DNA of 64,000 nucleotides from the sequence record NC_047979.1. One strand, given 5' to 3'. The notes under the pieces are model-generated. The model saw nothing but the letters and a program-made list of their open reading frames with translations, was not told where the DNA came from and ran no database searches. Source of the stretch: Escherichia phage Gostya9. How positions within the stretch are numbered: the stretch's first letter is position 1; every line of letters starts with the position of its first letter. Made by a program: the position numbers and the translations under genes. Shown here piece after piece: positions 3,441 through 50,527 of this stretch.

Positions 3441-4142
3441 TCAAATTTTCATTTTTTCGATCATAGCTGCAACACAATAGCTCTCAACTAAGGCATCGAA
3501 TGCTGGGTCGTGCTTAACCGGATATATCCCGTAACGAATGGTGTCCATCTTCTCCATTTTAGCTATTGCCCAGCTAATACCTTCGGTCTCTAGAGCCTTA
3601 TAACTGTATCCAGCTTGCATCCAGAGATTACGAAGGGATCGAACATTACCCAAATTCCAGAATTTCCACGGAACTATTTCTTCATTGGTTCCAGCATGGA
3701 AAGTGTTTGCAGAGTAGATAGTCATATCAAACTCTGGGCCATTGCCATAATACAAAGCATTTTCGCCTAGAGCCAATTCCATAATGTTTTTAGCCATAGA
3801 ATAAGCTGCATAGTTAGAGCCGAGCTTATTAGTACAGTGATGTTTACCATCTTGAAAAGCAATCAGCTTTGGATTACGCTCGTTCATAGCTTCCATAATG
3901 TGGAAAGCAGACGGACTATTTTTAGCTTGATCCATCCAGAATGCTAGAGTAGATGCTGTAACTTTGGCACCAGAATTAAGCTGATCCTGCACATCCAAAG
4001 TAACAAACACTAGATCAGGGTCTTTATCAATTCCGTGCATAGCCACAAAAGCGAAAGAAGGCATTACGATATGAGTAGTACCACAATCTCCCGGAGTTCC
4101 TAGAGATTCAATATCTAACATACCAAATGGTTTTACTTTCAT
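3441..4142 (-). CDS. putative 3'-5' exonuclease (DEDD / DnaQ-like fold)
   Basis: N-terminal FGMLDIESLG resembles DEDD exonuclease motif I (D-x-E); 233 aa. Motif-level inference only. Confidence 0.45.
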   Translation of the reverse strand: MKVKPFGMLDIESLGTPGDCGTTHIVMPSFAFVAMHGIDKDPDLVFVTLDVQDQLNSGAKVTASTLAFWMDQAKNSPSAFHIMEAMNERNPKLIAFQDGKHHCTNKLGSNYAAYSMAKNIMELALGENALYYGNGPEFDMTIYSANTFHAGTNEEIVPWKFWNLGNVRSLRNLWMQAGYSYKALETEGISWAIAKMEKMDTIRYGIYPVKHDPAFDALVESYCVAAMIEKMKI

Positions 4143-4170
4143 AACTTATCCTTTATTGTGTAGAAAACTA

Positions 4171-4407
4171 TTAAAGAGCTGTCTCTTTAATAGACTCCCA
4201 CTTCTTGGGGTCTTTAAAACCAGGAAGCATATCTTCACTAACATCCCAGTTTTCTTCCGTAGAAAAGTCTGGCCATTCATTCCAACTATCTTCCAGCTCT
4301 TCATACCAGGTATCCATTACCTCATGACTAGAAAGTCGTGTATAATCTCTAGCGGATTTATGAGTGCTAGCACGGTTAAAATCATTCTTTGCTACAAAAT
4401 TACGCAT
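4171..4407 (-). CDS. small acidic Trp-rich hypothetical protein (78 aa)
   Basis: ATG at 4407 with GGAG RBS; strongly acidic (EELEDSWNEWPDFSTEENWDVSED). Confidence 0.5.
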   Translation of the reverse strand: MRNFVAKNDFNRASTHKSARDYTRLSSHEVMDTWYEELEDSWNEWPDFSTEENWDVSEDMLPGFKDPKKWESIKETAL

Positions 4408-4415
4408 AGTTTCTC

Positions 4416-4442
4416 CAAAAATATGAGGGGCTTTCGCCCCTC
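4416..4442 (-). terminator. rho-independent terminator
   Basis: Hairpin GAGGGGC-TTTC-GCCCCTC followed on the minus strand by a U-rich tract. Confidence 0.5.
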
Positions 4443-4449
4443 TTATCTA

Positions 4450-4965
4450 TTACTTCGCTTTACGTTTACGAGCTGGTTTAGCGGATTTACGAGCAGAATC
4501 ACCCGTAAATTTAATACCCACACCATAGCATAGAGCACGAACGTTATCTTTGCTATATTCTACGCCGAAGATATTTGGCTTAACAGAACCAAACTGGCCA
4601 CGAGTATCACGCAGTACATCTGCCGTTGGTTTACGCTTCTGGTTAACTGCTTTCTCATAGTCTTTCATGGCCATGCCATTACGAGGGAACAACTCAGCTC
4701 CAGCATTGAAACTCAGTGTTACTGGAACAGATTTGTGACCGTAACCCTGTACATAGGTTACGAGGCGGACTACAGAACGAGTAGCATTCTTAGCCTTCGG
4801 CTTTTGACGAATCGGAGCCGGACGATTCAGTGCCTGTGCAGCTTGAGCATCAGTAGGATGCTTGCGCAGGTGGCGTTCCAGACGAGCTTTGCGGTTAGCC
4901 TCAGTCTGTGGGAAAGTTTTAACTGCCGGAGCTGCTTGAGTTTTTGCGTTTTTCTGCTTAGCCAT
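4450..4965 (-). CDS. basic hypothetical protein (171 aa)
   Basis: ATG start 39 nt downstream of the promoter at 5004-5032; Lys/Arg-rich N- and C-termini. Confidence 0.55.
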   Translation of the reverse strand: MAKQKNAKTQAAPAVKTFPQTEANRKARLERHLRKHPTDAQAAQALNRPAPIRQKPKAKNATRSVVRLVTYVQGYGHKSVPVTLSFNAGAELFPRNGMAMKDYEKAVNQKRKPTADVLRDTRGQFGSVKPNIFGVEYSKDNVRALCYGVGIKFTGDSARKSAKPARKRKAK

Positions 4966-5003
4966 TATTTGTTTTCCTTTTTGTTTATCAATTTATGAAG
5001 TAT

Positions 5004-5032
5004 ATTATACGAGAATTTGAAGCGTTTAGCAA
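5004..5032 (-). promoter_or_regulatory. sigma70-type early promoter (TTGCTA-N17-TATAAT)
   Basis: Minus strand TTGCTA, 17-bp spacer, TATAAT, CATAAATTGATA box. Confidence 0.5.
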
Positions 5033-5048
5033 ATGAATTTTTTAAAAA

Positions 5049-5327
5049 TTATCTGCCAACCATCTTAGCTTGTTCGGCATCTGAGACATATTGATACGCT
5101 CCTTTATTATACGCTGGAGCAGTACACATTTTCTTACGCTCAATCTCTTCTTGAGCTTTTCTTTCGCGTTCAGCTAATTCTTCATCCAGATAAACTAAAC
5201 GTTGTTCTGGAGGAGGTGGAAGACGTGTTTCTGGCTCCCCAATATTAGCCTTTCTTATTTGACGAGGTGATTGTACACGTTTTCTCAACGGTTTAAATCC
5301 TAATGAATTTGAGTTATAAATTCGCAT
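5049..5327 (-). CDS. hypothetical protein (92 aa)
   Basis: ATG with strong GAGGAGG RBS; promoter at 5355-5383. Confidence 0.55.
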   Translation of the reverse strand: MRIYNSNSLGFKPLRKRVQSPRQIRKANIGEPETRLPPPPEQRLVYLDEELAERERKAQEEIERKKMCTAPAYNKGAYQYVSDAEQAKMVGR

Positions 5328-5354
5328 AAAGCCCTCCTCACTTTCAATACGAAT

Positions 5355-5383
5355 ATTATACTAAATTAGAGGGCTTTAAGCAA
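5355..5383 (-). promoter_or_regulatory. sigma70-type early promoter (TTGCTT-N17-TATAAT)
   Basis: Minus strand TTGCTT, 17-bp spacer, TATAAT. Confidence 0.5.
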
Positions 5384-5403
5384 CTGAATTTTTAAATTAT
5401 TTA

Positions 5404-5880
5404 TTACATCTCCGCAAGTTCTTGCTCAGTAATAACTGTGTTACACAGTGCATCTACAGCTTCATTACCACTAATACCAGAATGTCCTTTAACCTTAATA
5501 AAGGTAGGATTAGTATTATGAAAGTTGATATACTGCTGTGTTAATTTAAATGCTTCCTGCCACAGCTCTAGGTTAAGAGGAACTTCACCATCTGCTTTCT
5601 TCCAGCCTTTCCTTTGCCAAGAGAACATCCAGCTTTCCATGCCATTTTTGCAATAAGCAGAGTCAGTATAGATAACACTTGGTCTATTATCCTTTTTAAC
5701 GGACCAACGTAGAGCTTCTACAATAGCCGTGAGTTCCATCTCATTATTTGTAGTTTTAGGATTATAACCAGATTTAGAGCCTAAACGATCGTCATTATCA
5801 TCATAGACAATAAAACCCCAAGCACCCGGGCCAGGGTTGGACTTACAAGCACCATCTGTGTAAATGTGGAAAACCGACAT
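5404..5880 (-). CDS. rnh: ribonuclease H
   Basis: N-terminal IYTDGACKSNPGPGAWG is the hallmark RNase HI motif; 158 aa. Confidence 0.85.
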   Translation of the reverse strand: MSVFHIYTDGACKSNPGPGAWGFIVYDDNDDRLGSKSGYNPKTTNNEMELTAIVEALRWSVKKDNRPSVIYTDSAYCKNGMESWMFSWQRKGWKKADGEVPLNLELWQEAFKLTQQYINFHNTNPTFIKVKGHSGISGNEAVDALCNTVITEQELAEM

Positions 5881-5882
5881 TA

Positions 5883-6392
5883 TTATTCCCCTTCGTAGGT
5901 ATCTTCAGGCCAATGTGATGGTTCACTATCTGCTGGTTTATACATTCTAGGTAGTGCTAATAGTGAGAGAAAAGCTGGCTCACTAAAGTAGTGAGTATAT
6001 TCTTTAAACTCTGAGAACCACTCAGTTACCTCTTGAATATCCTCTTCACAAGGTGAGAGAGTTTCTATGGAACAGGTTGCACCCCTCTTAGGTTTGGTTT
6101 TATAATAGTCATCTAGTACTCTTTGAACCTTCTGTGCTGTTTCCTCAGCAGTTAAAGATTCATCACACTCTATACTATCTATCTCCTCTGCTAGATAGTC
6201 CGGCCATTCCTCTCCCTGACCTACTCCATCATAACGAATGACTGGCTGGCAGTCCTCATCACTATTTAGTGCATGTAGTTCCATATAATGGAACGTTTGG
6301 GCTATTACATCTAGCAGCAACTTTAGTTGCTCTTTTGAGGCTGTCCCTTCTTTGTACTTAATATAGGCATTAGCTACTTTTGGATTAATCAT
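5883..6392 (-). CDS. acidic hypothetical protein (169 aa)
   Basis: ATG-initiated ORF downstream of the promoter at 6427-6455; very Asp/Glu-rich. Confidence 0.55.
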   Translation of the reverse strand: MINPKVANAYIKYKEGTASKEQLKLLLDVIAQTFHYMELHALNSDEDCQPVIRYDGVGQGEEWPDYLAEEIDSIECDESLTAEETAQKVQRVLDDYYKTKPKRGATCSIETLSPCEEDIQEVTEWFSEFKEYTHYFSEPAFLSLLALPRMYKPADSEPSHWPEDTYEGE

Positions 6393-6426
6393 ATTCGTAT
6401 TTATCCTTTGTTTATTAATTGAGTAT

Positions 6427-6455
6427 ATTATATTTAAATTTCACTAAATAAGCAA
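6427..6455 (-). promoter_or_regulatory. sigma70-type early promoter (TTGCTT-N17-TATAAT)
   Basis: Minus strand TTGCTT, 17-bp spacer, TATAAT. Confidence 0.45.
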
Positions 6456-6493
6456 ATGAAATTTAAGTATAATAGCCCCGAAGGCTATTTAAA

Positions 6494-7267
6494 TTATACA
6501 AACTCATACGCCGGGAACTTAGGTGAACGAACTCTATTACCTATAGTCGCTGTGGAACACCCCAATGCTCTAGCTGCTGCACTCATACTAACGTATTCCA
6601 CACCATCCACACGTACTGCCTTAAAGTGAGTAGGAATGGGTGTCTTTCCCTCTCTAATACTTTCTTGGTACTGCTTAGAAGCCTGAGACATCTTGCTCAG
6701 AGCCTCTTCAGTGTGCTTCTTCCCATAAAAGGAGTTATTCTCACCTGTTCGATCCCTACAACTATTACAGTACTCCCCATTAGTGTTATTAAGGGCTAGT
6801 AGGGAACCACAATCAATACATGTTTTTGAGCGAGTAGATACTCCTCCCTTCCAGTTATAGTTTAGCTCGCCTGGTCTACTCCACCGGGCTTTTCTTTCTT
6901 CTTTAGATAAGGACGCTATATGCTTTCTAACACTCTCACTAATTCTCTTAATAATCTCCTCTCTTCGAGGATTATTTGTGAGATTATCCCCGCCACCGTA
7001 GCTACCTATGTTGAACTCTGCTCCCAGCTCCTTAGCCCACTCTTCTTCTAGTAAGAACTGCTGATCTACTTCTTCAGTAGTATCTAAGATGTCAAATACA
7101 AAGTCTTGCTTTCCGGTTTTATCATAAGCTCTCTGTAGAAAAGCGTTATGGTGGTTCCCCTTACTTAGTGAGTAAAAATGTTTACGCTTTCTAGCCTCAA
7201 TATCCTTAGTCGATCCAACGTACTGTCTTCCCGTAGATAGCTGAGTTATACTATAGATGTAAATCAT
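6494..7267 (-). CDS. GIY-YIG homing endonuclease
   Basis: N-terminal IYIYSI...GRQYVGST...R..KH matches the GIY-YIG catalytic module; C-terminal region has repeated NUMOD-like Cys-containing DNA-binding segments. Free-standing gene upstream of thyA. Confidence 0.75.
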   Translation of the reverse strand: MIYIYSITQLSTGRQYVGSTKDIEARKRKHFYSLSKGNHHNAFLQRAYDKTGKQDFVFDILDTTEEVDQQFLLEEEWAKELGAEFNIGSYGGGDNLTNNPRREEIIKRISESVRKHIASLSKEERKARWSRPGELNYNWKGGVSTRSKTCIDCGSLLALNNTNGEYCNSCRDRTGENNSFYGKKHTEEALSKMSQASKQYQESIREGKTPIPTHFKAVRVDGVEYVSMSAAARALGCSTATIGNRVRSPKFPAYEFV

Positions 7268-41987: not shown

Positions 41988-42022
41988 GAAAACCCCAGTG
42001 GACAAAATCCACTGGGGTTTTA
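41988..42022. terminator. bidirectional rho-independent terminator at the early/late convergence point
   Basis: Perfect 9-bp stem CCCCAGTGG / CCACTGGGG with 7-nt loop, flanked by GAAAA upstream and TTTTA downstream. Confidence 0.75.
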
Positions 42023-42042: not shown

Positions 42043-42240
42043 CTATGCTAAGTTCTCTATATTAACAAGTTTATTTACAAAGGCTTTAAGTTCTTCAGCG
42101 AAGTTACCGCGACCACCCAAACCGTTACCGATCCAGGAACCAATTAAACCACCGATCGCACCACCGATACCAGCCGCACCAGCTTCACCGCCGAAACCGT
42201 CGCCACCGAGATTAGTAGGTAAAAGAGTCGTGTCAGACAT
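42043..42240 (-). CDS. small glycine-zipper protein (about 65 aa; a longer 106-aa form from ATG 42363 is possible)
   Basis: ATG at 42240 with GGAG RBS 8 nt upstream. MSDTTLLPTNLGGDGFGGEAGAAGIGGAIGGLIGSWIGNGLGGRGNF carries repeated GxxxG motifs; last minus-strand gene before the convergent terminator. Confidence 0.45.
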   Translation of the reverse strand: MSDTTLLPTNLGGDGFGGEAGAAGIGGAIGGLIGSWIGNGLGGRGNFAEELKAFVNKLVNIENLA

Positions 42241-42275
42241 AGGAAAATCTCCATATATGGATTTGTTAAGCGGAT

Positions 42276-42291
42276 GTAACCAACTGGTTAC
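42276..42291. promoter_or_regulatory. perfect 7-2-7 inverted repeat GTAACCA-AC-TGGTTAC, candidate operator
   Basis: Lies about 40 nt upstream of the small-gene ATG; a second 10-bp palindrome CCATATATGG (42251-42260) abuts the RBS. Confidence 0.35.
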
Positions 42292-42461
42292 GCTGGTAAG
42301 TATACTCGTTAACATATTATTTACCATGATATGCGTGTAAATAAATTGTAAATAGTTTGGCATTGGTACTCTTATAATGCAATGGACGTCACGACTTGAA
42401 CAAAATGAGGAAGCTATGTTTAAACGCGGTGCGGTCGCAGGTAAGGTGAGAAAGTAACAAC

Positions 42462-42486
42462 TAAAAAAGGAGCCAAACGGCTCCTT
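42462..42486 (-). terminator. rho-independent terminator after the tail-fibre gene
   Basis: Hairpin GGAGCC-GTTT-GGCTCC followed on the minus strand by TTTTTT. Confidence 0.6.
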
Positions 42487-42497
42487 AATTATTGTGG

Positions 42498-45167
42498 TTA
42501 TGGCAGATCGTTGTTAACCACATTGCCCTTCAACGCAGCTATCTCCGCTTTCAAACTATCAATTTCTGCTTTGAGCGCTTGAGTGGCACCCATCAAGTCC
42601 ATAATAATAGGGTTAGTATCAATTGAAGGTCTGTCTCGGGTCTTCTGTGAAACAATTTTCTTCTCGACTTCACGACGAATAAATTTATGTTCAATGCGTT
42701 GTTCTTTGATTTGTTCTGTAATACCAGTCTCGGGGTCGGTATGATCTACAGTAACCTCTACAGGTACATCCTCATATATATCCTTATAAACATCCTCGTA
42801 TACATCCTCATAAATCTCTTCATTGTGCTTCACATATTGTGGGGTGACTTTCTCCGATTCTTCTGCAATAATACCAAATCTTATTCTTTCTTGTTCATCG
42901 TCCTTATAAATAAAAGTGACCATGCGTTGTGCCATGATGCGGTTTAAAGCATCAATAGGATTACCGTCATTGATCTCCTTTTTATATGCTAAGCCCGATG
43001 TTCCTTGCAGTGCAAGGGTTCCGGCAGCACTCGGAAGTCTAATCCAATGCTCAGGCGAACCTGCTACGGTATATGTTTGAAATCCATAGCTCCCTACAGT
43101 TTCGCTAAACCCCACACGGTTTCGAATAACTCCATTTGCTGCTAAGTTACAAACATAAGACGCTGCACCATTGGATTTAAACGTTGCAGCGTCGGTTCCT
43201 GCGTCCCCGCCACCCGCTGTAATTCGCCCGGTAATATTGGTAGAGAACGCAATTGCAATCCCAGTACCCGCACCCCCAATGGCTAACGGAGTAGAATGAT
43301 ACGAGCCATCCTCATTGTAGTAGTAGAATGCGTAGCCCCCGCTGATAGCAAGCCCTGATCGCCATCTTACAGTAGATGGACTGGAAGGTCCGGTATAAGC
43401 TGTGTAAGCCGAACCCGGTCCCGTCGCTCTAATTAATACGCTGTCTTGACTATAACCCCCAGTTGTCCTGAGCTGACCAACTTCCCCAAATGAACTAGTC
43501 TTGTGAGCTGGTAGCGTGACTGTTTTAGCTGAAGCGCTGTAGTTAAAGACAACATTAGTGTTACCAGTATCGTTCTCCTGGAGTCGTATGTTACCGCCAT
43601 CCATAACCATAACATAGCCAGTTACATCATCTGGGGCGCCAACTTCTTCAAATTTAATTGCTGGGTTAACACTCTTGATTAAAAGAGGATTACCAGCGTT
43701 CGCCCCAAATTCTGCATTAAGGTTAAACTTCTGCTTTTTGGTAAAAGTATTTTCAGCATCAAGTTTAGCTAGGCTGGAGGGGTCCAGTGAATCCGCATAC
43801 CCTTTCGCGCGGTTAGCTTCCTCTGTTGCTAGGGTGGCTTTCTGCCCTGCGGTTGCAGCGCTGCCTGCGGCTGCTGTAGCTTGTTCCACCGCTTCGGTTG
43901 CACTAGCACCAGCTTGAGCTGCAGAAGCTGCGGCAGCGTCTTTTAGCGGGGTTATTGTATTAATTGCTTCCGTCTTAGCGGTGTTGACCGCAGCAACACC
44001 CGATGTTTTAACTGTATTAACTTCTTCGACTGCGTCGGCTTTAGCTATTGCGACTTCAGTCAACGCGGAGTCTTTAATTGCTTGAGTATCTGTTTTTAAC
44101 TGAGTAACGTCAGCTTTAAGCTGGGTAACTGTAGTTACAGCAGCACTAGCTGTGCTAGCAGATCCCGCCGCGTCAGCTTGTGCTTGGCTAGCAGCGTCTT
44201 CACTAGCTTTTGCGTTAGTTTCTGAAGTTTTTGCAGCAGTTTCTGAGTTTTTTGCTGATTCAGCATCAGCAGCAGCTTGTGTAGCGAATATTTCTGCCTC
44301 ATCCCTAAATCCTTTAGAGTCAGAAGCAGCACTAGCACTATTAGCAGCATTAATCTCAGAAGTTTTAGCCGCAGAAGCAGATGCAGCAGCATTAGTTTCT
44401 GAGATGTTTGCTGCGGAGGCCGCGGCAGCTGCAGTAGTTTCGCTAGCGTTTGCATTAGTTTCTGAAGTTTTAGCTGCCAGTTCACTAGCCTTTGCATTGG
44501 TTTCTGAAGTTTTAGCTGCGGTTTCACTATTAGCAGCCGCAGTAGCAGAAGAAGCAGACTGAGTTGCAGATTGCTGAGAAGATGCTGCAGAGATTTCCGC
44601 TTCATTTTCAGAGTCCTTAGCATTTAGCTCTGACTGCTTAGCATTAGTTTCTGATGTTTTAGCTGCTGAAGCAGAAGCAGCCGCAGCAGTTTTACTACTA
44701 TTAGCGTTGGTCTCAGAAGTTCTAGCTGCGGTTTCACTAGCTTTTGCGTTAGTTTCTGAAGTTTTAGCTGCGGTTTCACTAGCTTTTGCGTTAGTTTCTG
44801 AAGTTTTAGCTGCGATTTCACTAGCTTTTGCATTAGTTTCTGAAGTTTTAGCAGCGGTTTTACTATTGGCAGAAGCAGTAGCAGAAGAAGCAGACTGAGC
44901 TGCGGATTGCTGAGAAGATGCCGCAGAAATTTCTGCGGCATCTTCCGAATCTTTAGCATTTAGCTCTGACTGTTTTGCATTAATTTCAGATTGCTTAGCT
45001 GCTGCAGCAGATGCTCTAGAAGACCCTATTGCAGAGGTTAGCTCTCCTGCAGTAATAGAGCTAATTGTGTTTCCCAGAACTACGGTATACTTAGGGTATT
45101 TACTTGCAGTTATACTATTCTGGTCCATAGTGACCATTTGTTGTAGAATTATTTTAGTTATAGCCAT
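42498..45167 (-). CDS. ltf: L-shaped tail fibre protein (pb1-like) with tandem repeats and C-terminal intramolecular chaperone domain
   Basis: 889 aa; central Ala/Ser/Thr-rich tandem repeats (TSETNAKASE x several, plus two about 70-aa duplicated blocks); C-terminal segment (GLAYKKEINDGNPIDALNRIMAQRMVTFIYKDDEQERIRFGIIAEE ... coiled coil) resembles S74-type self-cleaving chaperone domains. ATG overlaps the upstream stop. Confidence 0.7.
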   Translation of the reverse strand: MAITKIILQQMVTMDQNSITASKYPKYTVVLGNTISSITAGELTSAIGSSRASAAAAKQSEINAKQSELNAKDSEDAAEISAASSQQSAAQSASSATASANSKTAAKTSETNAKASEIAAKTSETNAKASETAAKTSETNAKASETAARTSETNANSSKTAAAASASAAKTSETNAKQSELNAKDSENEAEISAASSQQSATQSASSATAAANSETAAKTSETNAKASELAAKTSETNANASETTAAAAASAANISETNAAASASAAKTSEINAANSASAASDSKGFRDEAEIFATQAAADAESAKNSETAAKTSETNAKASEDAASQAQADAAGSASTASAAVTTVTQLKADVTQLKTDTQAIKDSALTEVAIAKADAVEEVNTVKTSGVAAVNTAKTEAINTITPLKDAAAASAAQAGASATEAVEQATAAAGSAATAGQKATLATEEANRAKGYADSLDPSSLAKLDAENTFTKKQKFNLNAEFGANAGNPLLIKSVNPAIKFEEVGAPDDVTGYVMVMDGGNIRLQENDTGNTNVVFNYSASAKTVTLPAHKTSSFGEVGQLRTTGGYSQDSVLIRATGPGSAYTAYTGPSSPSTVRWRSGLAISGGYAFYYYNEDGSYHSTPLAIGGAGTGIAIAFSTNITGRITAGGGDAGTDAATFKSNGAASYVCNLAANGVIRNRVGFSETVGSYGFQTYTVAGSPEHWIRLPSAAGTLALQGTSGLAYKKEINDGNPIDALNRIMAQRMVTFIYKDDEQERIRFGIIAEESEKVTPQYVKHNEEIYEDVYEDVYKDIYEDVPVEVTVDHTDPETGITEQIKEQRIEHKFIRREVEKKIVSQKTRDRPSIDTNPIIMDLMGATQALKAEIDSLKAEIAALKGNVVNNDLP
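44140..44960. repeat. tandem direct repeats (about 39-42-nt units and larger duplicated blocks) inside the tail-fibre gene
   Basis: Near-identical units such as GCGGTTTCACTAGCTTTTGCGTTAGTTTCTGAAGTTTTAGCT recur at 44721, 44761 and 44801, encoding the TSETNAKASE repeats; these also generate spurious poly-Leu/poly-Ala ORFs in other frames. Confidence 0.7.
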
Positions 45168-45589
45168 TATTGAGTCACCCCATCGCTAATATAAATTTTG
45201 CCTTCCATAATACGGAAAGAACTAGCAGCATTACCAACAGCTGTTCTAGTAATAATTACATCATAGTACCCAGCTAATCTCTGTCTGGGGTTATATCTAT
45301 CTCTTTCTTTGGATGCTTTGGAAGCAATAGTAGCTACAGCACTAACAGGTAGACTTATAGAGGCTACCCCCTGTGCAGCATCAACAATAGATGTAGTAAA
45401 AGATGCTAAAGTTTCAGCCCCATCTTCAAAGCTACTTTTAATACTTCCTCTAAGAGAAAAGCCAGTAAGGTCTACTGGTGTAGATGTAGGGGGATAAACA
45501 CTATCATCTACATCCATAAATTGCATAAGTAAACCATAAGGTACGTTCTCATCTACTACTAAATCAATAACTCTATTTTCTGTACTCAT
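45167..45589 (-). CDS. tail collar-like protein (p132-position, 140 aa)
   Basis: Size and position immediately upstream of the tail fibre match the T5 collar protein as I recall it; no diagnostic motif. Confidence 0.45.
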
Positions 45590-45593
45590 TATT

Positions 45594-47678
45594 TTACCTT
45601 ATATGGATATACCCGTTTTGCAGGTCTATCTTCATTTTGTAAGATCCCTCTGGGTTAGAGGATAGTGCTGCTGCACGATCATATATAATATTTACACCTA
45701 TTTGTGATAAGAAAGCATTATTAGCAACAATTTTACTAGCAGTTACCGTACCATTAACTATCATATCACCATGTAAAACCATTGCAGGGCTAGCCCATGC
45801 TGAACCATTCCACTGCCTAGTAAACGCTGTTCCAGGTGCATCACTTTTATACTCAGTCAATACATCATACTTAACAGGGCCACTACCGAAGTTAGATGTA
45901 AAAAACGAATTGGCTTGAGAATCATTCCATGCCGTTAAATTAGTAATAGCAACGGAGTACATACCGGGACCACGTTGTCCATTAGCACCTGGACTACCAT
46001 TGGCCCCTGGCCTACCATCAACCCCTTCTGTACCACTCCATTGAACTACATCTGACCAACTGGTTCCAGATACTAACTGATTAGTAACAGGGTCTAAAGT
46101 ACCAGTAGAACAATAAATATTCTGAGTATTAGATGTTCTATTCGGTGGAGTTTTAGACCAACCTGAAGGTGGGTATGCAGGACTTGTTGGTTTAGCAGGC
46201 AATGAAGTACCTAGAATATAGATAAATACTGTCTGCTTACCTTGTATACCTGTTGCTATATCGATGTCACCGTTAGGTGTACCAATTACAACCCCACTAG
46301 AGATTCTTAACGTATCCCCATCATAACGAATGTACTGTGTAGCATTACCAATGTCCAGTTTTGGTTTAGCAGTAGCGTTATCCATGCCCATCCAAATGCC
46401 GGATTTTGTGTCTCCCCAAGTTTTGCCTTGAGTATAGATTGCTGGGTTGTCTTGACCAGTTAAGTTAGTCATTACAAAGTTCGCAGCATTAATGGTTTTA
46501 GTTATTACACTTCCATCAACGTTAACTATCTTTTTAATAGGGTCAAAAGATATTGGTGCTTTTCCTTCTGCATCTAGAAGACCTATATTAATAGCACCGG
46601 TGGCAGCATCTATTAAGAAGGTTTGTTTCCAGGTCGATCCATCTTTAATTTTACCCTTAATGTGCGCGTAATTTACTTCGATACCAGTTTCATTAACAAA
46701 ACTATTATCTAGTGGAGTACTCTCATTTAATATAAATGTCTGTACTGCGGAATCAGTAACATCTTGGGCATCTGGTCCCCAGGCAATAGATGACACTTTA
46801 AATTTATGTTCTACTTTCCACGGGAATGAGATAATTGTTGCAGCTTGAGCAGCACCAACGTTAATCTTTTGAGCTTTAGTCCAACCACTACGTGCGAACT
46901 CTGCTGAGTCTATATAAGAAACAACAAACTCTCTAACGTTAGCACCAGCACCACGTTCCCAGTCCCATTCTACTCTAACATCATATCGTTCCTTACCATC
47001 TGCAATTCGTGCAGCTTTAAACACGATATTAACAGGAGCTGTAGGAGGCACAAAGTTATATTTAACTTCAAAGACGGTAGGATACTCAAAATACCCTGAG
47101 GAATCAACTGTTACCCCGTCAGGTAGGGTTACTTGTCCTGAGATCCTTACTTTATAGAATCCAATAGGTACTCCACCAAACATAATAGTTGGCATCAAAG
47201 CACCCACGTAATATTTAATCCAAGGACTATCTGCACTAGAATTATCTTTTAACTCTATAGTACAATAATCGGCCTCCCCGGTAGTATCTATATAAACTAT
47301 TGGAGAACCAACACCAACGTCCACCGGTTCTGACTCGCATCGAGCACCCGTGATTCTAGGTGCTGATTTCATTCTAAAAGTTTGTTTGTCAGATAAATTA
47401 ATACCTATCTGAGCATTAAGTAGTTCAGAGTCTATTATAGAATCATAAAATGCACCCTGAACTTCATAAGTTGTCGTAGGTTTTAAGTTATTAATAGTTA
47501 CAGAGAATGTATCAACACCAGTAAAATCCCTACGAGTGATGTTGTTACCTTCTTTAAGCCAGAAGGATCTACCAATAACGTCGTAATCCGAGTAAATGGA
47601 GTGCTGGATATACGCTAAGGTATATCCAGTCAGTACGCTATTTAAGACCATCTTGGCTGGTGCATTATTTGAAATCAT
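45594..47678 (-). CDS. baseplate/tail tip protein (pb4-like) with Ig/FN3-like beta-rich repeats
   Basis: About 694 aa, beta-rich Gly/Thr/Ser composition. ATG at 47678 overlaps the upstream stop (TAATG); the track ORF starts 5 codons upstream at a GTG. Confidence 0.5.
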
Positions 47679-50527
47679 TAAATGGATGCCCACTCCACAG
47701 ACTGTTCTCCATCATCTCCTTCAGCTCTAATACGAAAATACAATTTTCTATTTATACCTAGAGCACCGCTGTTCTGGAGAGCAAAGTCTGCCTTATTATA
47801 TATTAATAAATAGTCATAAGTATACTGATTTTCAATACGTACACTTCTTAACATCCTATTTTGCGAATCGTGTATTTCAAGTGTATAAAATATACTATCT
47901 ATTATATCTTCTTCAGGTATTCTATCCCAAGCTAGTTTCACATCTGGGCCAACAAACTCAGTTACATCTCCAGAAGCAGTATTAGTTACCCTAAAATTAG
48001 ATACTACACTAAGGTTTTTAGCAGAATTAAGTTCTATAGACAGAGTCACCGGGGAACTTCTTCTACCATTAATATCTACTGCCCTTATCTCAAATATAGC
48101 CAGACCTGCTGGTTCCCCAATTATCTCTTGGATCATACGTTCGTTAGGATTATTCTCTAACTGTTGTACTATGTAAGGTTCAGCATGACCGGAATGCACG
48201 ATAGAGTAATAAACTACGTTATTAGTTAAGCTTGGAAGCCAGGATAATTCACCATTTTTTCCTATAGAACCAACTAAACCACCAGGTGTAGGAGTATACT
48301 TAAAATCTCTAGGTGGAAGGACATTGTTACTAATATCTGGTATATCATTACCACTATTATCTACTTGATCAGAGTTGATGAATACATCTTCTCCATACTC
48401 CTGTAGAGTAACATTTATCTTACCTTCTCTAGAGTTTTCCACTTCGTCTACTAGGAAGTACTTCCTATCCCACCCATAACGGCCATATGTGAATGCAATA
48501 GCATCGTTAGGTTCAATACCAATGAATTGATACGGCAATGAGAAAGAAAGTGTTCTTGAGTATCTGGATTTCTTAAGTTCTCTATCAGCAAAACTTCTTG
48601 CAGTATAGTAATTAGTAATATTAGCAAAAGATAGTTGTAATTTTTTATCTAGGTTCTTGTCCTGTTCCTTATACTGGGAGTTATAGAATGTAATGGAATT
48701 AGTTTTCCAGCTAAGGGCTGGATCTACGATAGATGCTTGAACTGAGTTGAATTTATTTCTACCAGTAGTATCTGATAGCTCCAAATCACCGTAAGTATCT
48801 AGAAAATTAATCTCTAACGGAGTATTAGAGTATTTTTCTACAGTAACCCTGTACTGGCCAGATAAGTTGTTAATAGCCCCACCAAAGGATTCTAATATAC
48901 CTTGAACGTTTTTAAATACTGATTCAGAAGTGTCTAGTATGGTGTTTAGTTGAACTATTTGACGATGCTCGGAGTAAGAATCTTCCCAACCAACGTAGCG
49001 CCAGTAGGGTTGCCAGCCAACTTGGTAAGATTCATCAATTATATCTAGAATCTTAGCTTCGGCGATTACCTGCTGCAGCGGGAACTGATCAATGGTGATA
49101 TTAGCCCCGTAACGTTCGGAAGTCAAATAATCCATTAACTGCCAGATACCGTTTAAGCTAGTTTTGTTGGCCACTACAGAACCGTCAGAATGGTAGACTT
49201 TTACTTTTTTACCTTGAATTTCAGCACTAACTTCAGGAATATCAGTTCTGTTTTCATTAATAGTAAAACGCACTACGGCATAAGCGGTATCTAGTAGCTT
49301 ATATCTGGCGTCCCAGTACTCCGGTCCATTGCCATTCATATTCTGAAGGTAGAACCCACGTTCTCTAGCTATATCTACTAGTACTTCAGAAGCCGTTTGA
49401 TTAGACTTTCCGTGGTAAGTCCAAATCCTTATATCACCATTTCCATCATTATACCTATACTCTTGACCATGAACGGATGGACTACTAGAGGAAATTCCAG
49501 ATGCTATCCTCTGCATGGTATCTCCTACTATTTTTTTAGTACCGAAGCAGGTTCTAGCGGAGCTATCATTATCGTCTACACAAATCATAGGGTTATCACC
49601 AAAGGAGAAATCAAGAAAACCATCAATCTCTCCCTCAGCAAAGGCGTATACGACATAAACTATGTTGGGATTGTGTAGTTCTGTATCAGCAAAAATAGGT
49701 ATCCCCGGTATTTTCTGTACACCATAAACTACTGGTATATATTTAGCAGCAAGGTTAAAATCTATATCTACTTCCTTAGTAACAGTTTCATAGTATTTTT
49801 TAAGGCTGTAGCTTCTAGATAAACCAAATAATTTTTTCTTTGATTTTAGCTTGTATCTTTCTTCCTGTACTTGGTACTTTGCCAGTATAGATATACTTTT
49901 ATTAGCATGAAAGAACCCATAGTCTTCTTGGTACTCAGGTCTTTTAGCACCGTTAGATGGTACTAGCTGTCCAGCTACAACTTCAAGCCCCCTATGAGAA
50001 GCATCATCAGTATATCTGCCATTAACCCTATCAAAGTCATAGAATTGGTTAGAACAATTCCAGGTAATTGTAGAAGTTCCTACTCCAGAGGTACTAATGT
50101 TATCTTTAATGCCTCCTCCAGTAATCCTTCCCCTAAAGTACAGTAAAGGACCATTTGTATCTGGGTCTACTGGCAGAATAGAACCATCTTCAGTAATAAT
50201 TGCTTGATGAATTGATACGGTTCTATCTAAGAAGGACACGCCATTTTGTACTAGTTTTAGCACTTCATCCTGTGCTGTGCCAGTAATGGTAAAAGATAGA
50301 CTTCCAATAGATAAATCTCTGTTTTGTTTGTGTGGGCTAATAGACTTAACTTTACCCGCTTGGTATAGGATGCCATTATATATTACATCTCTAAAATAAT
50401 CAGTTAAATAAATAAAAGCAGTACTAGTACCAGTAGAGCCAGGTAACTCTAGAGAAATTAGACTAGCAGTTTTTATTCTGCTATTATTTTTTAAGTAGTT
50501 TCTAGCACTATCTAGTATTTTTTTCAT
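47678..50527 (-). CDS. baseplate hub protein (pb3-like)
   Basis: 949 aa, which matches the T5 pb3 length as I recall it; sits between Dit and pb4-like genes; start overlaps the Dit stop. Confidence 0.6.
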   Translation of the reverse strand: MKKILDSARNYLKNNSRIKTASLISLELPGSTGTSTAFIYLTDYFRDVIYNGILYQAGKVKSISPHKQNRDLSIGSLSFTITGTAQDEVLKLVQNGVSFLDRTVSIHQAIITEDGSILPVDPDTNGPLLYFRGRITGGGIKDNISTSGVGTSTITWNCSNQFYDFDRVNGRYTDDASHRGLEVVAGQLVPSNGAKRPEYQEDYGFFHANKSISILAKYQVQEERYKLKSKKKLFGLSRSYSLKKYYETVTKEVDIDFNLAAKYIPVVYGVQKIPGIPIFADTELHNPNIVYVVYAFAEGEIDGFLDFSFGDNPMICVDDNDSSARTCFGTKKIVGDTMQRIASGISSSSPSVHGQEYRYNDGNGDIRIWTYHGKSNQTASEVLVDIARERGFYLQNMNGNGPEYWDARYKLLDTAYAVVRFTINENRTDIPEVSAEIQGKKVKVYHSDGSVVANKTSLNGIWQLMDYLTSERYGANITIDQFPLQQVIAEAKILDIIDESYQVGWQPYWRYVGWEDSYSEHRQIVQLNTILDTSESVFKNVQGILESFGGAINNLSGQYRVTVEKYSNTPLEINFLDTYGDLELSDTTGRNKFNSVQASIVDPALSWKTNSITFYNSQYKEQDKNLDKKLQLSFANITNYYTARSFADRELKKSRYSRTLSFSLPYQFIGIEPNDAIAFTYGRYGWDRKYFLVDEVENSREGKINVTLQEYGEDVFINSDQVDNSGNDIPDISNNVLPPRDFKYTPTPGGLVGSIGKNGELSWLPSLTNNVVYYSIVHSGHAEPYIVQQLENNPNERMIQEIIGEPAGLAIFEIRAVDINGRRSSPVTLSIELNSAKNLSVVSNFRVTNTASGDVTEFVGPDVKLAWDRIPEEDIIDSIFYTLEIHDSQNRMLRSVRIENQYTYDYLLIYNKADFALQNSGALGINRKLYFRIRAEGDDGEQSVEWASI

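What the first reader, a model, noticed from the sequence alone, without database searches (positions are those of the whole stretch)
42498..45167. Tail fibre with tandem TSETNAKASE repeat arrays and a C-terminal self-cleaving chaperone-like domain
The 889-aa fibre is much shorter than the T5 pb1 I recall (about 1400 aa). Its central third is built from near-identical tandem DNA repeats (about 39-42-nt units plus larger duplicated blocks) that are prone to expansion or contraction by recombination. The C-terminus resembles S74-type intramolecular chaperone domains. Both features point to a rapidly evolving host-range determinant.
Basis: partly seen in the sequence, partly recalled or inferred. 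Interest (0 to 1): 0.5.

Follow-up and report, generated by a model that had tools for sequence, protein, structure and literature searches.

The report
Chimeric T5-like lateral tail fibre
This is the side tail fibre gene of a T5-like phage: its repeats encode a coiled-coil shaft, not the host-binding part, and its outer two-thirds were copied recently from an unrelated small phage, which makes it an ordinary kind of gene with a well-preserved recombination scar.

Summary
An 889-aa ORF lies at 42498-45167 (-). It carries 42-nt tandem arrays and a 336-nt-offset duplication, and it ends in a Peptidase_S74 chaperone domain. One correction: the repeats lie at aa 52-330, the N-terminal third, not the centre.

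The gene is the pb1/LtfA-type lateral tail fibre of a Tequintavirus. The repeats encode an unbroken array of 34 heptads (K-x-S-E-x-N/A-A) that is predicted helical from aa 40. Across 58 T5-type fibres, 416 of 423 SE[TI]NA motifs keep one heptad phase while the array varies from 14 to 36 heptads. Copy number therefore changes shaft length, not specificity.

The specificity part is a rare receptor-binding domain (aa 470-723), followed by the chaperone, with Ser724/Lys729 at the T5 Ser1264/Lys1269 spacing. About 2 kb (roughly 44140-42096) is 95% identical to Seuratvirus side-fibre DNA. The block brought its own terminator and a truncated next gene. The last 17 codons of the ancestral T5-like fibre gene survive downstream. 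Phage HK6 shares the right-hand junction.

The receptor-binding domain shows excess nonsynonymous change (dN/dS 1.1-1.8, against 0.1-0.25 in the chaperone).

Verdict: a new chimeric member of a known kind, of moderate interest.

The parts
42498..45167 (-). ltf gene: lateral (L-shaped) tail fibre precursor, 889 aa; predicted mature fibre aa 1-723
   Evidence: ORF. phrog_24369/5481 tail fibre, E = 6e-93. DT57C LtfA 8hqz_d, E = 1.7e-67. T5 pb1 aa 1-205 is 59% identical.
45167..45589 (-). ltfC / p132 collar protein gene (140 aa), the docking ring for the fibre N-terminus
   Evidence: Pfam PF23926 LtfC, E = 3e-15. phrog_34807 collar protein. Role taken from the DT57C and T5 cryo-EM papers.
45051..45167 (-). 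aa 1-39: N-terminal anchor that threads into the collar
   Evidence: Near-identical to T5 pb1 and DT57C LtfA. AF2 shows no helix before aa 40. In DT57C LtfA the helix starts at T40.
44325..45038 (-). aa 44-281: unbroken array of 34 heptads, K-x-S-E-x-(N/A)-A; the proximal coiled-coil shaft
   Evidence: Heptad print-out and all self-offsets are multiples of 7. AF2 gives a continuous helix at aa 40-271 with block-mean pLDDT about 64-84. Phase is conserved in 416/423 motifs across 58 homologues.
44689..44865 (-). 42-nt tandem array, 4.2 copies (AAKTSETNAKASET units, aa ~102-160)
   Evidence: TRF score 268, 90% matches. Family D3.
44437..44529 (-). second 42-nt tandem array, 2.2 copies (aa ~214-244)
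   Evidence: TRF score 144.
44773..45014 (-). copy 1 (aa 52-132) of the 16-heptad segmental duplication
   Evidence: the repeat finder D2: 87% identical to 44437-44678, offset 336 nt. Protein offset 112 gives 55% self-identity.
44437..44678 (-). copy 2 (aa 164-244) of the segmental duplication
44292..44354 (-). aa 272-292 (SASAASDSKGFRDEAEIFATQ): predicted break in the helix, a possible hinge
   Evidence: AF2 shows no helix and pLDDT <50. The SDSKGFR landmark is shared with HK6 and P0002-P0004. The hinge role is inference.
44154..44222 (-). aa 316-338 (KTSETNAKASEDAASQAQADAAGSASTASAA): linker conserved between T5-like and Seuratvirus fibre genes; left crossover at about 44140
   Evidence: In the three-way alignment the window follows T5-like MET_P1_100_107 up to ...GCTAGTGCTGCT and follows SLUR25 from GTAAC... 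onward.
43788..44291 (-). aa 293-460: distal helical shaft, two helices (293-386, 392-460); Seuratvirus-type from aa ~339
   Evidence: AF2. 95-98% DNA identity to SLUR25.
42999..43760 (-). aa 470-723: receptor-binding domain, beta-rich, rare family, fold not resolved
   Evidence: Only 21 cluster representatives at E <= 1e-3 among 1.84 billion. In cultured phages it is found only in SLUR25, SLUR63, Skure and HK6. dN/dS is 1.1-1.8. AF2 pLDDT is mostly <50.
42996..42998 (-). Ser724 codon: predicted nucleophile; cleavage predicted between Thr723 and Ser724
   Evidence: Motif ALQGT|SGLAYK against T5 TINT|SDARLK (Ser1264, Lys1269). T723 and S724 are invariant in alignment A1.
42981..42983 (-). Lys729 codon: predicted general base, at Ser+5
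   Evidence: Same spacing as T5 Lys1269.
42501..42998 (-). aa 724-889: S74 intramolecular chaperone, 166 aa
   Evidence: Pfam PF13884. DT57C LtfA C-terminus, E = 2.7e-26 and 2e-8. Foldseek to 3GW6 (E = 4e-6) and MyRF ICA 7DC3. dN/dS is 0.10-0.25.
42621..42833 (-). aa 779-849: unusually long beta-hairpin 'tentacle' of the chaperone (arms 779-810 and 817-849)
   Evidence: AF2 strands with 10-residue block-mean pLDDT 79-87. This region is 73 aa here and in SLUR63, against 31-34 aa in seven other members of the same chaperone subfamily. It is absent from DT57C LtfA.
42765..42815 (-). 12-nt x 4 tandem repeat encoding YEDV-YEDV-YKDI-YEDV on the first hairpin strand
   Evidence: TRF period 12, 4.1 copies. 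Family D7. Skure has an 11-nt deletion here.
42467..42486 (-). intrinsic terminator brought in with the Seuratvirus-type block, 12 nt after the stop codon
   Evidence: Terminator scan. It lies inside the block that is 95% identical to SLUR25.
42096..42497 (-). Seuratvirus-derived downstream DNA: intergenic region plus about the first 48 codons (from Met at 42240) of a Gly-rich gene that is 276 aa in SLUR25 (phrog_9288)
   Evidence: Right junction at 42096|42095, with only TG shared.
42043..42095 (-). relic of the ancestral T5-like ltf 3' end: last 17 codons (AEELKAFVNKLVNIENLA*) plus the stop
   Evidence: Matches the C-termini of T5-like fibres P0002, P0004, P0005 and MET_P1_100_107 (...VEELKTLINKLVNIENLA).
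41989..42021 (.). T5-type bidirectional terminator between ltf and the convergent T5.132 homologue
   Evidence: Terminator scan on both strands. T5 annotation. Identical in MET_P1_100_107.

Best explanation
The ORF encodes the lateral (L-shaped) tail fibre of a T5-like siphovirus, a homotrimer built from four modules.

1. **Anchor, aa 1-39.** These residues thread into the dodecameric LtfC/p132 collar, which is encoded immediately upstream.
2. **Shaft, aa 40-460.** This is an alpha-helical shaft, most likely a trimeric coiled coil.
   - Its first 34 heptads (aa 44-281, K-x-S-E-x-N/A-A, with Ala and Ser at the 3-4 spaced positions) are what the tandem DNA repeats encode.
   - Exact repeats of up to 50 nt allow unequal recombination. 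That adds or removes whole heptads (21 nt, about 1 nm), 14-aa double units, or larger blocks such as the 16-heptad duplication here (about 17 nm).
   - Only in-phase products survive, so the repeats tune fibre length and do not change specificity.
3. **Receptor-binding domain, aa ~470-723.** It probably binds an O-antigen or LPS glycan for reversible primary adsorption.
4. **S74 intramolecular chaperone, aa 724-889.** It folds and trimerises the distal domain, then cuts itself off between Thr723 and Ser724 using a Ser724/Lys729 dyad. This leaves a 723-aa mature fibre with an exposed tip.

**Evolution.** About 2 kb was copied from a Seuratvirus-like phage into an ancestral T5-like ltf of the MET_P1_100_107 type. 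The block runs from roughly 44140 to 42096. It contains the distal shaft, the receptor-binding domain, the chaperone, the stop codon, a terminator and the start of the donor's next gene. The left crossover lies in a conserved linker of about 70-85 nt. The right junction is illegitimate and lies 17 codons before the old stop. Host range therefore changes by cassette replacement and by amino-acid substitution in the receptor-binding domain.

**Shown:** the anatomy, the homologies, the junctions, heptad-phase conservation and the substitution pattern.
**Inferred:** the trimeric coiled coil, the autocleavage, glycan binding, and the direction and mechanism of transfer.
For: **Identity and context.**
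- Gene order is pb3, pb4, ltfC, ltf, then the convergent T5.132 homologue, dut and D15, as in T5.
- The N-terminus is 59% identical to T5 pb1 aa 1-205 and matches DT57C LtfA aa 5-216.
- Cryo-EM of DT57C shows the LtfA N-terminus held in the LtfC ring and a three-helix bundle starting at T40.

**Shaft.**
- The heptad register is unbroken and every strong self-offset is a multiple of 7: 112, 14, 7, 49, 98 and 63.
- AF2 predicts a helix at aa 40-271, then at 293-386 and 392-460.
- In 58 T5-type fibres, 416 of 423 SE[TI]NA motifs share one phase. Landmarks after the array stay in phase while the array spans 14-36 heptads.
- The large duplications differ between relatives (112, 98, 63 and 77 aa) and are all multiples of 7.

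**Chaperone.**
- Pfam S74 is above its cut-off.
- The domain matches the DT57C LtfA C-terminus at E = 2.7e-26.
- Foldseek finds the endosialidase chaperone 3GW6 and MyRF ICA 7DC3.
- The T|S-x4-K motif has the same spacing as T5 Ser1264/Lys1269, where S1264A blocks cleavage.
- It is under purifying selection, with dN/dS 0.10-0.25.

**Cassette swap.**
- Window 44221-42113 is 95.2% identical to SLUR25, while the backbone is about 90% identical to other T5-likes.
- The informative-site switch falls at about 44140.
- The donor's next gene is truncated here and full length in SLUR25.
- The C-terminal tail of the ancestral T5-like ltf remains downstream.
- HK6, an independent isolate, shares the right junction.

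**Receptor-binding domain.** Nonsynonymous:synonymous counts are 27:5 and 41:12, against 3:4 and 2:5 in the chaperone (Fisher p = 0.037 and 0.016).
Against: - The heptad core would be Ala/Ser rather than the usual Leu/Ile/Val. The AF2 model is a monomer with moderate confidence (block-mean pLDDT about 64-84). The trimeric coiled coil is therefore extrapolated from a short resolved stretch of DT57C LtfA.
- The receptor-binding domain could not be modelled (pLDDT mostly <50), so neither its fold nor its ligand is known.
- Direct alignment of this chaperone with the T5 chaperone is uninformative (score 37). The catalytic assignment rests on motif spacing and on the closer DT57C relative.
- Within the swapped block the window is closer to SLUR25 (95.2%) than to HK6 (92.0%). 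One ancestral transfer followed by clonal descent does not predict this. Later recombination, or a second exchange between T5-likes, is needed to explain it.
- The dN/dS estimates are pairwise, rest on few synonymous changes (5-12), and one of the three contrasts is not significant (p = 0.17).
Confidence: 0.8

Rival explanations
1. One reading: the tandem repeats are themselves a host-range device. Expansion and contraction would change which hosts can be infected, for example by matching fibre reach to the thickness of the O-antigen or capsule layer, as in a contingency locus.
For: - Heptad number varies from 14 to 36 among 58 T5-type fibres.
- The nearest relative, HK6, has a different repeat arrangement.
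- Exact repeats of up to 50 nt would support frequent unequal recombination.
- A one-residue deletion (A198) in DT57C LtfA abolished adsorption to one host. If A198 lies in the shaft, as the alignment suggests, the shaft can matter for adsorption.
Against: - The same motif and phase occur in fibres with different distal ends.
- The repeats are proximal, next to the collar, far from the receptor-binding tip.
- The excess of nonsynonymous change lies in aa 470-723, not in the array.
- No data here link copy number to host.
Confidence: 0.15
2. The transfer ran the other way, from a T5-like phage to Seuratvirus, or both took the cassette independently from a third, unsampled phage.
For: - The three alleles are roughly equidistant: 95.2%, 92.0% and 92.0%.
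- More distant homologues of the receptor-binding domain (P0121 at 64%, P0122 at 56%) sit on other fibre N-termini, so the cassette does move between chassis.
Against: - In the T5-likes the block ends inside a truncated copy of a gene that is intact (276 aa, full phrog_9288 match) in SLUR25.
- The block is followed by the last 17 codons of a T5-type ltf.
- These two facts fix the T5-like genome as the recipient. They do not prove that the donor was a Seuratvirus in the strict sense.
Confidence: 0.1
3. The chimera is an assembly artefact from a mixed lysate holding a T5-like phage and a Seuratvirus.
For: - The tandem repeats and the shared linker are places where assemblers can join reads wrongly.
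- The HK6 fibre gene is unannotated, and the Skure record has frameshifts in the fibre gene.
Against: - HK6, an independent isolate from China, has the same right junction and the same architecture. It differs by about 8% across the block and in repeat arrangement.
- The ORF is intact, and its chaperone is under purifying selection.
- The right junction is not in a repeat.
Confidence: 0.02

Closest known systems
[quoted passage not shown]
   Same: - Same locus and neighbours.
- N-terminal anchor and the start of the heptad shaft are 59% identical over aa 1-205.
- Same K-x-S-E-x-N-A motif.
- C-terminal S74 chaperone with a T|S-x4-K site.
   Different: - T5 has about 23 heptads and no large duplication.
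- Its middle and its 'bullet' receptor-binding domain (aa 970-1263, polymannose-binding) show no detectable similarity to aa 339-723 here.
- The T5 chaperone is 133 aa; this one is 166 aa.
DT57C LtfA (1076 aa; PDB 8HQZ chain d)
   Same: - The best solved-structure relative at both ends: aa 4-208 (E = 1e-30) and the chaperone at aa 709-792 and 838-880 (E = 3e-26 and 2e-8).
- Helix onset at residue 40.
- Same SG(L/I)xYKK cleavage motif.
   Different: - The middle part and the receptor-binding region differ.
- LtfA carries a second fibre protein, LtfB, giving a branched fibre. No ltfB gene is present here.
- LtfA lacks the 45-aa hairpin extension (aa 793-837).
Side tail fibre of Seuratvirus phages vB_Eco_SLUR25, SLUR63 and Skure (725 aa; Queuovirinae)
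   Same: - Amino acids ~339-889 are 93% identical in protein and 95% in DNA. This covers the distal shaft, the receptor-binding domain and the chaperone with its YEDV hairpin.
- The terminator and the start of the next gene are also shared.
   Different: - The N-terminus is a Pfam PF08400 phage_tail_N domain that attaches to a lambda-like tail tip.
- It has no T5-type anchor, no long TSETNAKASE array and no LtfC partner.
Endosialidase (phage K1F) C-terminal intramolecular chaperone and MyRF ICA domain (Peptidase S74; PDB 3GW6, 7DC3)
   Same: - Same domain family by Pfam and by Foldseek.
- Same Ser-Lys self-cleavage logic.
- Same layout of mixed alpha/beta body, beta-hairpin tentacle and C-terminal helix.
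   Different: - Sequence identity is only 10-18%.
- The hairpin here is much longer, with predicted arms of about 32 residues, and carries a tetrapeptide tandem repeat.
- The domain it chaperones is not a beta-helix or a sialidase.
T4-type fibritin gpwac, a segmented trimeric coiled coil (Letarov et al. 2005; only the title was seen, in a reference list)
   Same: A phage fibre described in that paper's title as a segmented coiled coil.
   Different: - Unrelated in sequence.
- A different attachment and a different C-terminal foldon.
- This comparison rests on the title alone and on my recollection. It is a functional analogy and was not tested here.

Membership tests
T5-type lateral tail fibre (pb1 / LtfA) | N-terminal anchor homologous to pb1/LtfA residues 1-50 | tested here: met
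   8hqz_d aa 5-216 matches aa 4-208. T5 pb1 aa 1-60 is nearly identical. phrog_24369 positions 1-165 match.
T5-type lateral tail fibre (pb1 / LtfA) | Adjacent LtfC/p132 collar gene and T5 tail-tip synteny | tested here: met
   PF23926 LtfC lies at 45167-45589, the pb4 domains at 45594-47693 and pb3 at 47678-50527. The order is the same as in T5.
T5-type lateral tail fibre (pb1 / LtfA) | Distal receptor-binding domain of the T5 pb1 'bullet' type | tested here: not met
   No PDB sequence hit to 4UW7 or 4UW8. BLASTP of aa 470-723 against pb1 gives only E about 1. The family is known to be variable here, so this separates alleles and does not exclude membership.
T5-type lateral tail fibre (pb1 / LtfA) | Reversible binding to an O-antigen that speeds adsorption | not testable with these tools
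   Needs adsorption assays. Expectation taken.
Peptidase S74 intramolecular chaperone | Sequence match above the curated Pfam threshold | tested here: met
   PF13884: 31 bits against a cut-off of 22, aa 729-780.
Peptidase S74 intramolecular chaperone | Ser nucleophile with Lys five residues downstream, preceded by a small residue | tested here: met
   T723|S724...K729 against T5 T1263|S1264...K1269. T723 and S724 are invariant in 10 aligned homologues. Arg710 lies at Ser-14, as T5 Arg1250 does; I counted this by hand from the printed sequences.
Peptidase S74 intramolecular chaperone | Fold: alpha/beta body, beta-hairpin tentacle, C-terminal helix that trimerises | tested here: met
   The AF2 elements have block-mean pLDDT of mostly 79-87 in the hairpin, lower (54-80) in the C-terminal helix. 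Foldseek finds 3GW6 at E = 4e-6 and 7DC3 at E = 2e-3. TM-scores are low (0.17-0.19 on the query, up to 0.54 on the target) because the rest of the model is poor.
Peptidase S74 intramolecular chaperone | Autoproteolytic release after trimer folding | not testable with these tools
   Needs a western blot or mass spectrometry and an S724A mutant.
Alpha-helical coiled coil (trimeric fibre shaft) | Heptad periodicity kept over a long stretch | tested here: met
   34 consecutive heptads. Ser periodicity peaks at 3.5 and Ala at 7.0-7.1. Phase is kept in 416/423 motifs across homologues.
Alpha-helical coiled coil (trimeric fibre shaft) | Predicted or observed helix | tested here: met
   AF2 helix at aa 40-271, 293-386 and 392-460. 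DT57C cryo-EM shows a helix bundle from T40.
Alpha-helical coiled coil (trimeric fibre shaft) | Hydrophobic residues at the a and d positions | tested here: inconclusive
   The 3-4 spaced conserved positions are Ala and Ser, not Leu/Ile/Val. Small-residue cores do exist, but the oligomeric state cannot be derived from a monomer model.
Seuratvirus (lambda-like) side tail fibre | N-terminal phage_tail_N (PF08400) attachment domain | tested here: not met
   Present in SLUR63 P0001 at E = 1e-22 and absent from the window protein. The window fibre is therefore not a member. It only carries that family's distal cassette.

The most novel reading that the evidence does not exclude
The Ala/Ser heptad shaft and its conserved 'QAQADAAGSA' linker act as a cross-family splice adaptor. 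They would let a complete 'distal shaft + receptor-binding domain + chaperone' cassette move between unrelated siphoviruses, here from a Queuovirinae phage (a group reported to carry 7-deazaguanine-modified DNA) to a Demerecviridae phage. Heptad-quantised repeat changes would then retune fibre length to the new host surface. In addition, the chaperone allele with a 40-aa longer, tetrapeptide-repeat hairpin would be a functionally distinct S74 variant rather than neutral expansion.
Probability: 0.2. Interest if true: 0.55.

Novelty: new member of a known kind. Interest (0 to 1): 0.3.

Why it matters
- **Engineering.** Nature has already shown that a Seuratvirus receptor-binding cassette, together with its own chaperone, gives an intact ORF under purifying selection on a T5 chassis. 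The exact splice point is known (the linker at 44222-44154).
- **Design rule.** The phase data suggest that shaft length should be changed only in multiples of seven residues.
- **Annotation.**
  - The 106-aa ORF downstream is a recombination scar, not a gene.
  - The fibre gene of HK6 is missing from its GenBank record.
  - Repeat-rich alternative-frame ORFs inside the gene are spurious.
- **General biology.** This is one more clear example of the known mosaicism of tail-fibre genes, not a new principle.

Tried and rejected
- **Fold of the receptor-binding domain.** AF2 with a 10-sequence alignment gave pLDDT mostly <50 for aa 464-732. Foldseek matched only the chaperone part. No fold is assigned.
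- **PDB sequence search.** It found DT57C LtfA but not the T5 pb1 distal domain or its chaperone. A direct local alignment with the T5 chaperone was uninformative (score 37), so I relied on motif spacing.
- **More copies of the chimera.**
  - An exact 24-nt pattern spanning the right junction found nothing in IMG/VR or in JGI metagenomes.
  - Back-translated patterns from the receptor-binding domain found nothing in IMG/VR.
  - The exact proteins of the window and of HK6 are not in the 15-billion-protein collection.
- **The ORF at 42043-42363.** I considered it as a real accessory gene, such as a fibre-assembly factor or a Gly-rich bacteriocin-like peptide. I rejected this. It reads through donor intergenic DNA, about 48 codons of a 276-aa donor gene of unknown function (phrog_9288) and 17 codons of the old ltf.
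- **ORFs on other frames of the repeats.** The ORFs at 44135-44623, 44624-44959, 44152-44562 and 44707-44898 are Leu- or Ala-rich artefacts of the repeat sequence.
- **Literature.** A search for heptad-number variation in phage fibres returned nothing relevant.
- **Assembly artefact.** Rejected because of HK6 (see rival explanations).

Full report
**1. What is at the coordinates**

The ORF at 42498..45167 on the minus strand is real. It starts with ATG and encodes 889 aa.

Upstream on the same strand lie three tail-tip genes:
- a 140-aa LtfC/p132 collar protein (Pfam PF23926);
- pb4, with four PB4 Pfam domains;
- pb3, 949 aa.

Downstream and convergent are a T5.132 homologue, dUTPase and the D15 flap endonuclease. 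This is the gene order of phage T5.

A 24-kb stretch of the window is 88-92% identical to many Tequintavirus genomes and identical to none. The window is therefore an unsampled T5-like phage, and the ORF is its lateral (L-shaped) tail fibre gene. PHROG tail-fibre families match at E = 6e-93. DT57C LtfA matches at E = 1.7e-67. T5 pb1 aa 1-205 is 59% identical.

**2. The repeats are real, but they are in the N-terminal third**

Tandem Repeats Finder gives a 42-nt period at 44689-44865 (4.2 copies, 90% matches) and at 44437-44529 (2.2 copies). Both have a 21-nt sub-period. The repeat finder adds a 242-nt block duplicated 336 nt away at 87% identity.

A codon-shuffle control shows this is not a composition effect:
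- best self-offset identity is 0.611, against 0.439 +/- 0.011 in shuffles;
- the longest exact repeat is 50 nt, against a shuffled mean of 12.8 and a maximum of 18.

In the protein the repeats span aa 52-330, which is 6-37% of the length, not the central third.

**3. What the repeats encode**

Written in rows of seven from aa 44, the sequence is an unbroken run of 34 heptads of the form K-x-S-E-x-(N/A)-A.
- Every strong self-offset is a multiple of seven: 112, 14, 7, 49, 98 and 63.
- Ser shows a 3.5-residue periodicity and Ala a 7-residue periodicity.
- An AF2 monomer model predicts one continuous helix from aa 40 to 271 (block-mean pLDDT about 64-84). There is a break at aa 272-292, then helices at aa 293-386 and 392-460.
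- In the DT57C cryo-EM structure the LtfA helix also starts at residue 40 and forms a three-helix bundle leaving the collar.

I therefore read the array as the proximal coiled-coil shaft. The trimeric state is inferred, and the Ala/Ser core is unusual.

**4. Copy number among relatives**

I compared 58 database fibres that have the T5-type N-terminus.
- The SE[TI]NA motif count runs from 2 to 11 (median 8; 11 here). The Ala/Ser-rich stalk ends anywhere between aa 171 and aa 453.
- 416 of 423 motifs sit in the same heptad phase.
- Landmarks after the array (SDSKGFR, ATKAEN, KEYLDMA) are always in phase, while the array length ranges from 14 to 36 heptads.
- Large duplications differ by lineage and are all multiples of seven: 112 aa here, 98 aa in P0002, P0003, P0004 and P0010, and 63 and 77 aa in HK6 and P0024.

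The repeats do expand and contract, but only in whole heptads. That is the signature of a structural spacer, not of a specificity element. With the usual rise of about 0.15 nm per residue in a coiled coil (textbook value), one heptad is about 1 nm and the 112-aa duplication about 17 nm.

Golomidova et al. reported that deleting a single residue (A198) of DT57C LtfA abolished adsorption to one host. This fits a register constraint, although the interpretation and the placement of A198 in the shaft are mine.

**5. The C-terminal domain**

Several lines place aa 724-889 in the S74 intramolecular chaperone family.
- Pfam Peptidase_S74 is above threshold.
- The DT57C LtfA C-terminus matches aa 709-792 and 838-880.
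- The motif ALQGT|SGLAYKK places Thr723, Ser724 and Lys729 at the spacing of T5 Thr1263, Ser1264 and Lys1269. In T5, S1264A blocks autoproteolysis.
- Thr723 and Ser724 are invariant in ten homologues.
- The AF2 model of aa 440-889 is confident only in this domain. Foldseek then finds the endosialidase chaperone 3GW6 (E = 4e-6) and the MyRF ICA domain 7DC3.

One feature stands out. The beta-hairpin 'tentacle' is predicted with arms of about 32 residues (aa 779-810 and 817-849). Its first strand carries a 12-nt x 4 repeat (YEDV YEDV YKDI YEDV). This region is 73 aa here and in SLUR63, against 31-34 aa in seven other chaperones of the same subfamily. Two of those seven (P0121, P0122) follow homologous receptor-binding domains. 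The extension is therefore not demanded by the domain it folds.

Cleavage itself cannot be tested here.

**6. The distal two-thirds is a recent import**

Megablast shows that gene nt 969-2670 is 95-96% identical to the side tail fibre of the Seuratvirus phages SLUR25, SLUR63 and Skure (59-kb Queuovirinae). The only T5-like phage with the same distal part is HK6.

blastn extends the similarity from 44221 to 42113. That is 385 nt past the stop codon.

The block brings the following donor elements:
- its own terminator at 42486-42467;
- the donor's intergenic DNA;
- about the first 48 codons of the donor's next gene, a Gly-rich protein of unknown function that is 276 aa in SLUR25 (phrog_9288).

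*Left junction.* A four-way alignment (window, T5-like MET_P1_100_107, SLUR25, HK6) shows the window following the T5-like sequence up to about 44140 and the Seuratvirus sequence afterwards. The switch lies inside a linker of about 70-85 nt encoding KASEDAASQAQADAAGSASTASAA. This linker is conserved in both parents.

*Right junction.* It lies at 42096|42095 and shares only TG between the parents. The next 17 codons (AEELKAFVNKLVNIENLA, then stop) are the C-terminal tail of T5-like fibres of the MET_P1_100_107 and P0002-P0005 type. These are the same phages that share the N-terminal module with the window.

The event was therefore a replacement of the interior of an ancestral T5-like ltf by about 2 kb of Seuratvirus-like DNA. 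It was homologous on the left and illegitimate on the right, and the T5-like genome was the recipient.

HK6 has the same right junction, which rules out an assembly artefact. Within the block the window is closer to SLUR25 (95.2%) than to HK6 (92.0%). Later recombination must be assumed to explain this.

**7. Where the fast evolution is**

Within the shared block I counted nonsynonymous (N) and synonymous (S) differences.

| Region | N:S window-SLUR25 | N:S window-HK6 | N:S HK6-SLUR25 | dN/dS |
|---|---|---|---|---|
| Receptor-binding domain, aa 470-723 | 27:5 | 41:12 | 37:11 | 1.1-1.8 |
| Chaperone, aa 724-889 | 3:4 | 2:5 | 3:3 | 0.10-0.25 |
| Fisher p, domain against chaperone | 0.037 | 0.016 | 0.17 | - |

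The counts are small, but the contrast points to diversifying or relaxed selection on the binding domain.

That domain is also rare. Only 21 cluster representatives match at E <= 1e-3 among 1.84 billion proteins, and only three of them match full length. Among cultured phages, only four records cover the whole domain.

Its ligand is unknown. By analogy with T5 and the BASEL survey it is probably an O-antigen or LPS glycan.

**8. Comparison with what is known**

These points were already established in the literature:
- T5-like fibres keep only their 5' end and vary distally;
- they carry S74 chaperones;
- host range can be switched by recombination in the distal part.

The following are new here only in detail:
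- this particular chimeric allele, which is absent from protein databases;
- the nucleotide-level reconstruction of a transfer from Queuovirinae to Demerecviridae;
- the quantified heptad-phase rule;
- the long repeat-bearing chaperone hairpin.

**9. Verdict**

The gene is a new chimeric member of a known kind, of moderate interest.

Noticed in passing
window 42043-42363 (-): The 106-aa ORF is not a gene. It is a recombination scar that reads through donor intergenic DNA, about 48 codons of a Seuratvirus Gly-rich gene (276 aa in SLUR25, phrog_9288, function unknown) and the last 17 codons of the ancestral T5-like ltf. It sits between two terminators. In HK6 the same remnant has decayed further, to a shorter 85-aa ORF with a different end.
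   Followed up: yes
window 45963-46025 (-), inside pb4 (45594-47693): There is a collagen-like Gly-X-Y run ([21 protein letters not shown]) in the straight-fibre protein pb4. HK6 has two more triplets at the same place ([27 protein letters not shown]). This is a second length-variable repeat in the tail tip.
   Followed up: partly
window 47679-47693 (pb4 start): the ORF listing starts pb4 at a GTG ([10 protein letters not shown]...), which overlaps the end of pb3. The HK6 annotation starts at the ATG five codons later (MISNNAPAK...), and that is probably the true start.
   Followed up: no
L001 (HK6, PP724615.1) locus 3497-6154: An intact 885-aa fibre ORF is not annotated in the GenBank record, which has a 3.2-kb gap between CDS features. 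This may be why the chimeric fibre is missing from protein databases.
   Followed up: yes
L002 (Skure, MK672798.1) locus 4513-6690: The side-fibre gene is split into three ORFs in the record. One break is an 11-nt deletion inside the 12-nt YEDV repeat array and another lies near locus 5139. Either these are sequencing errors in repeats or Skure carries a fibre pseudogene.
   Followed up: partly
window 44135-44959, both strands: Several ORFs of 63-162 aa in other frames of the repeat region (Leu-rich on the minus strand, Ala/Ser/Val-rich on the plus strand) are by-products of the repeat sequence. They should not be annotated.
   Followed up: partly
L004 (T5, NC_005859) locus 5577-6001: The T5 reference annotates the collar gene as two short ORFs (T5.136 and T5.135). 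The window, HK6 and MET_P1_100_107 have one 140-aa ORF. This agrees with the frameshift error noted by the DT57C authors.
   Followed up: no
P0125 (776 aa) and PDB 7LZJ, 7VYV, 7VZ3 depolymerases: The same AAKTSETNAKASE-type heptad motif occurs in a fibre with a non-T5 N-terminus (P0125). It also occurs near the N-terminus of solved depolymerases annotated only as 'Depolymerase'. The motif is a widely shared shaft element, not a T5 speciality.
   Followed up: partly
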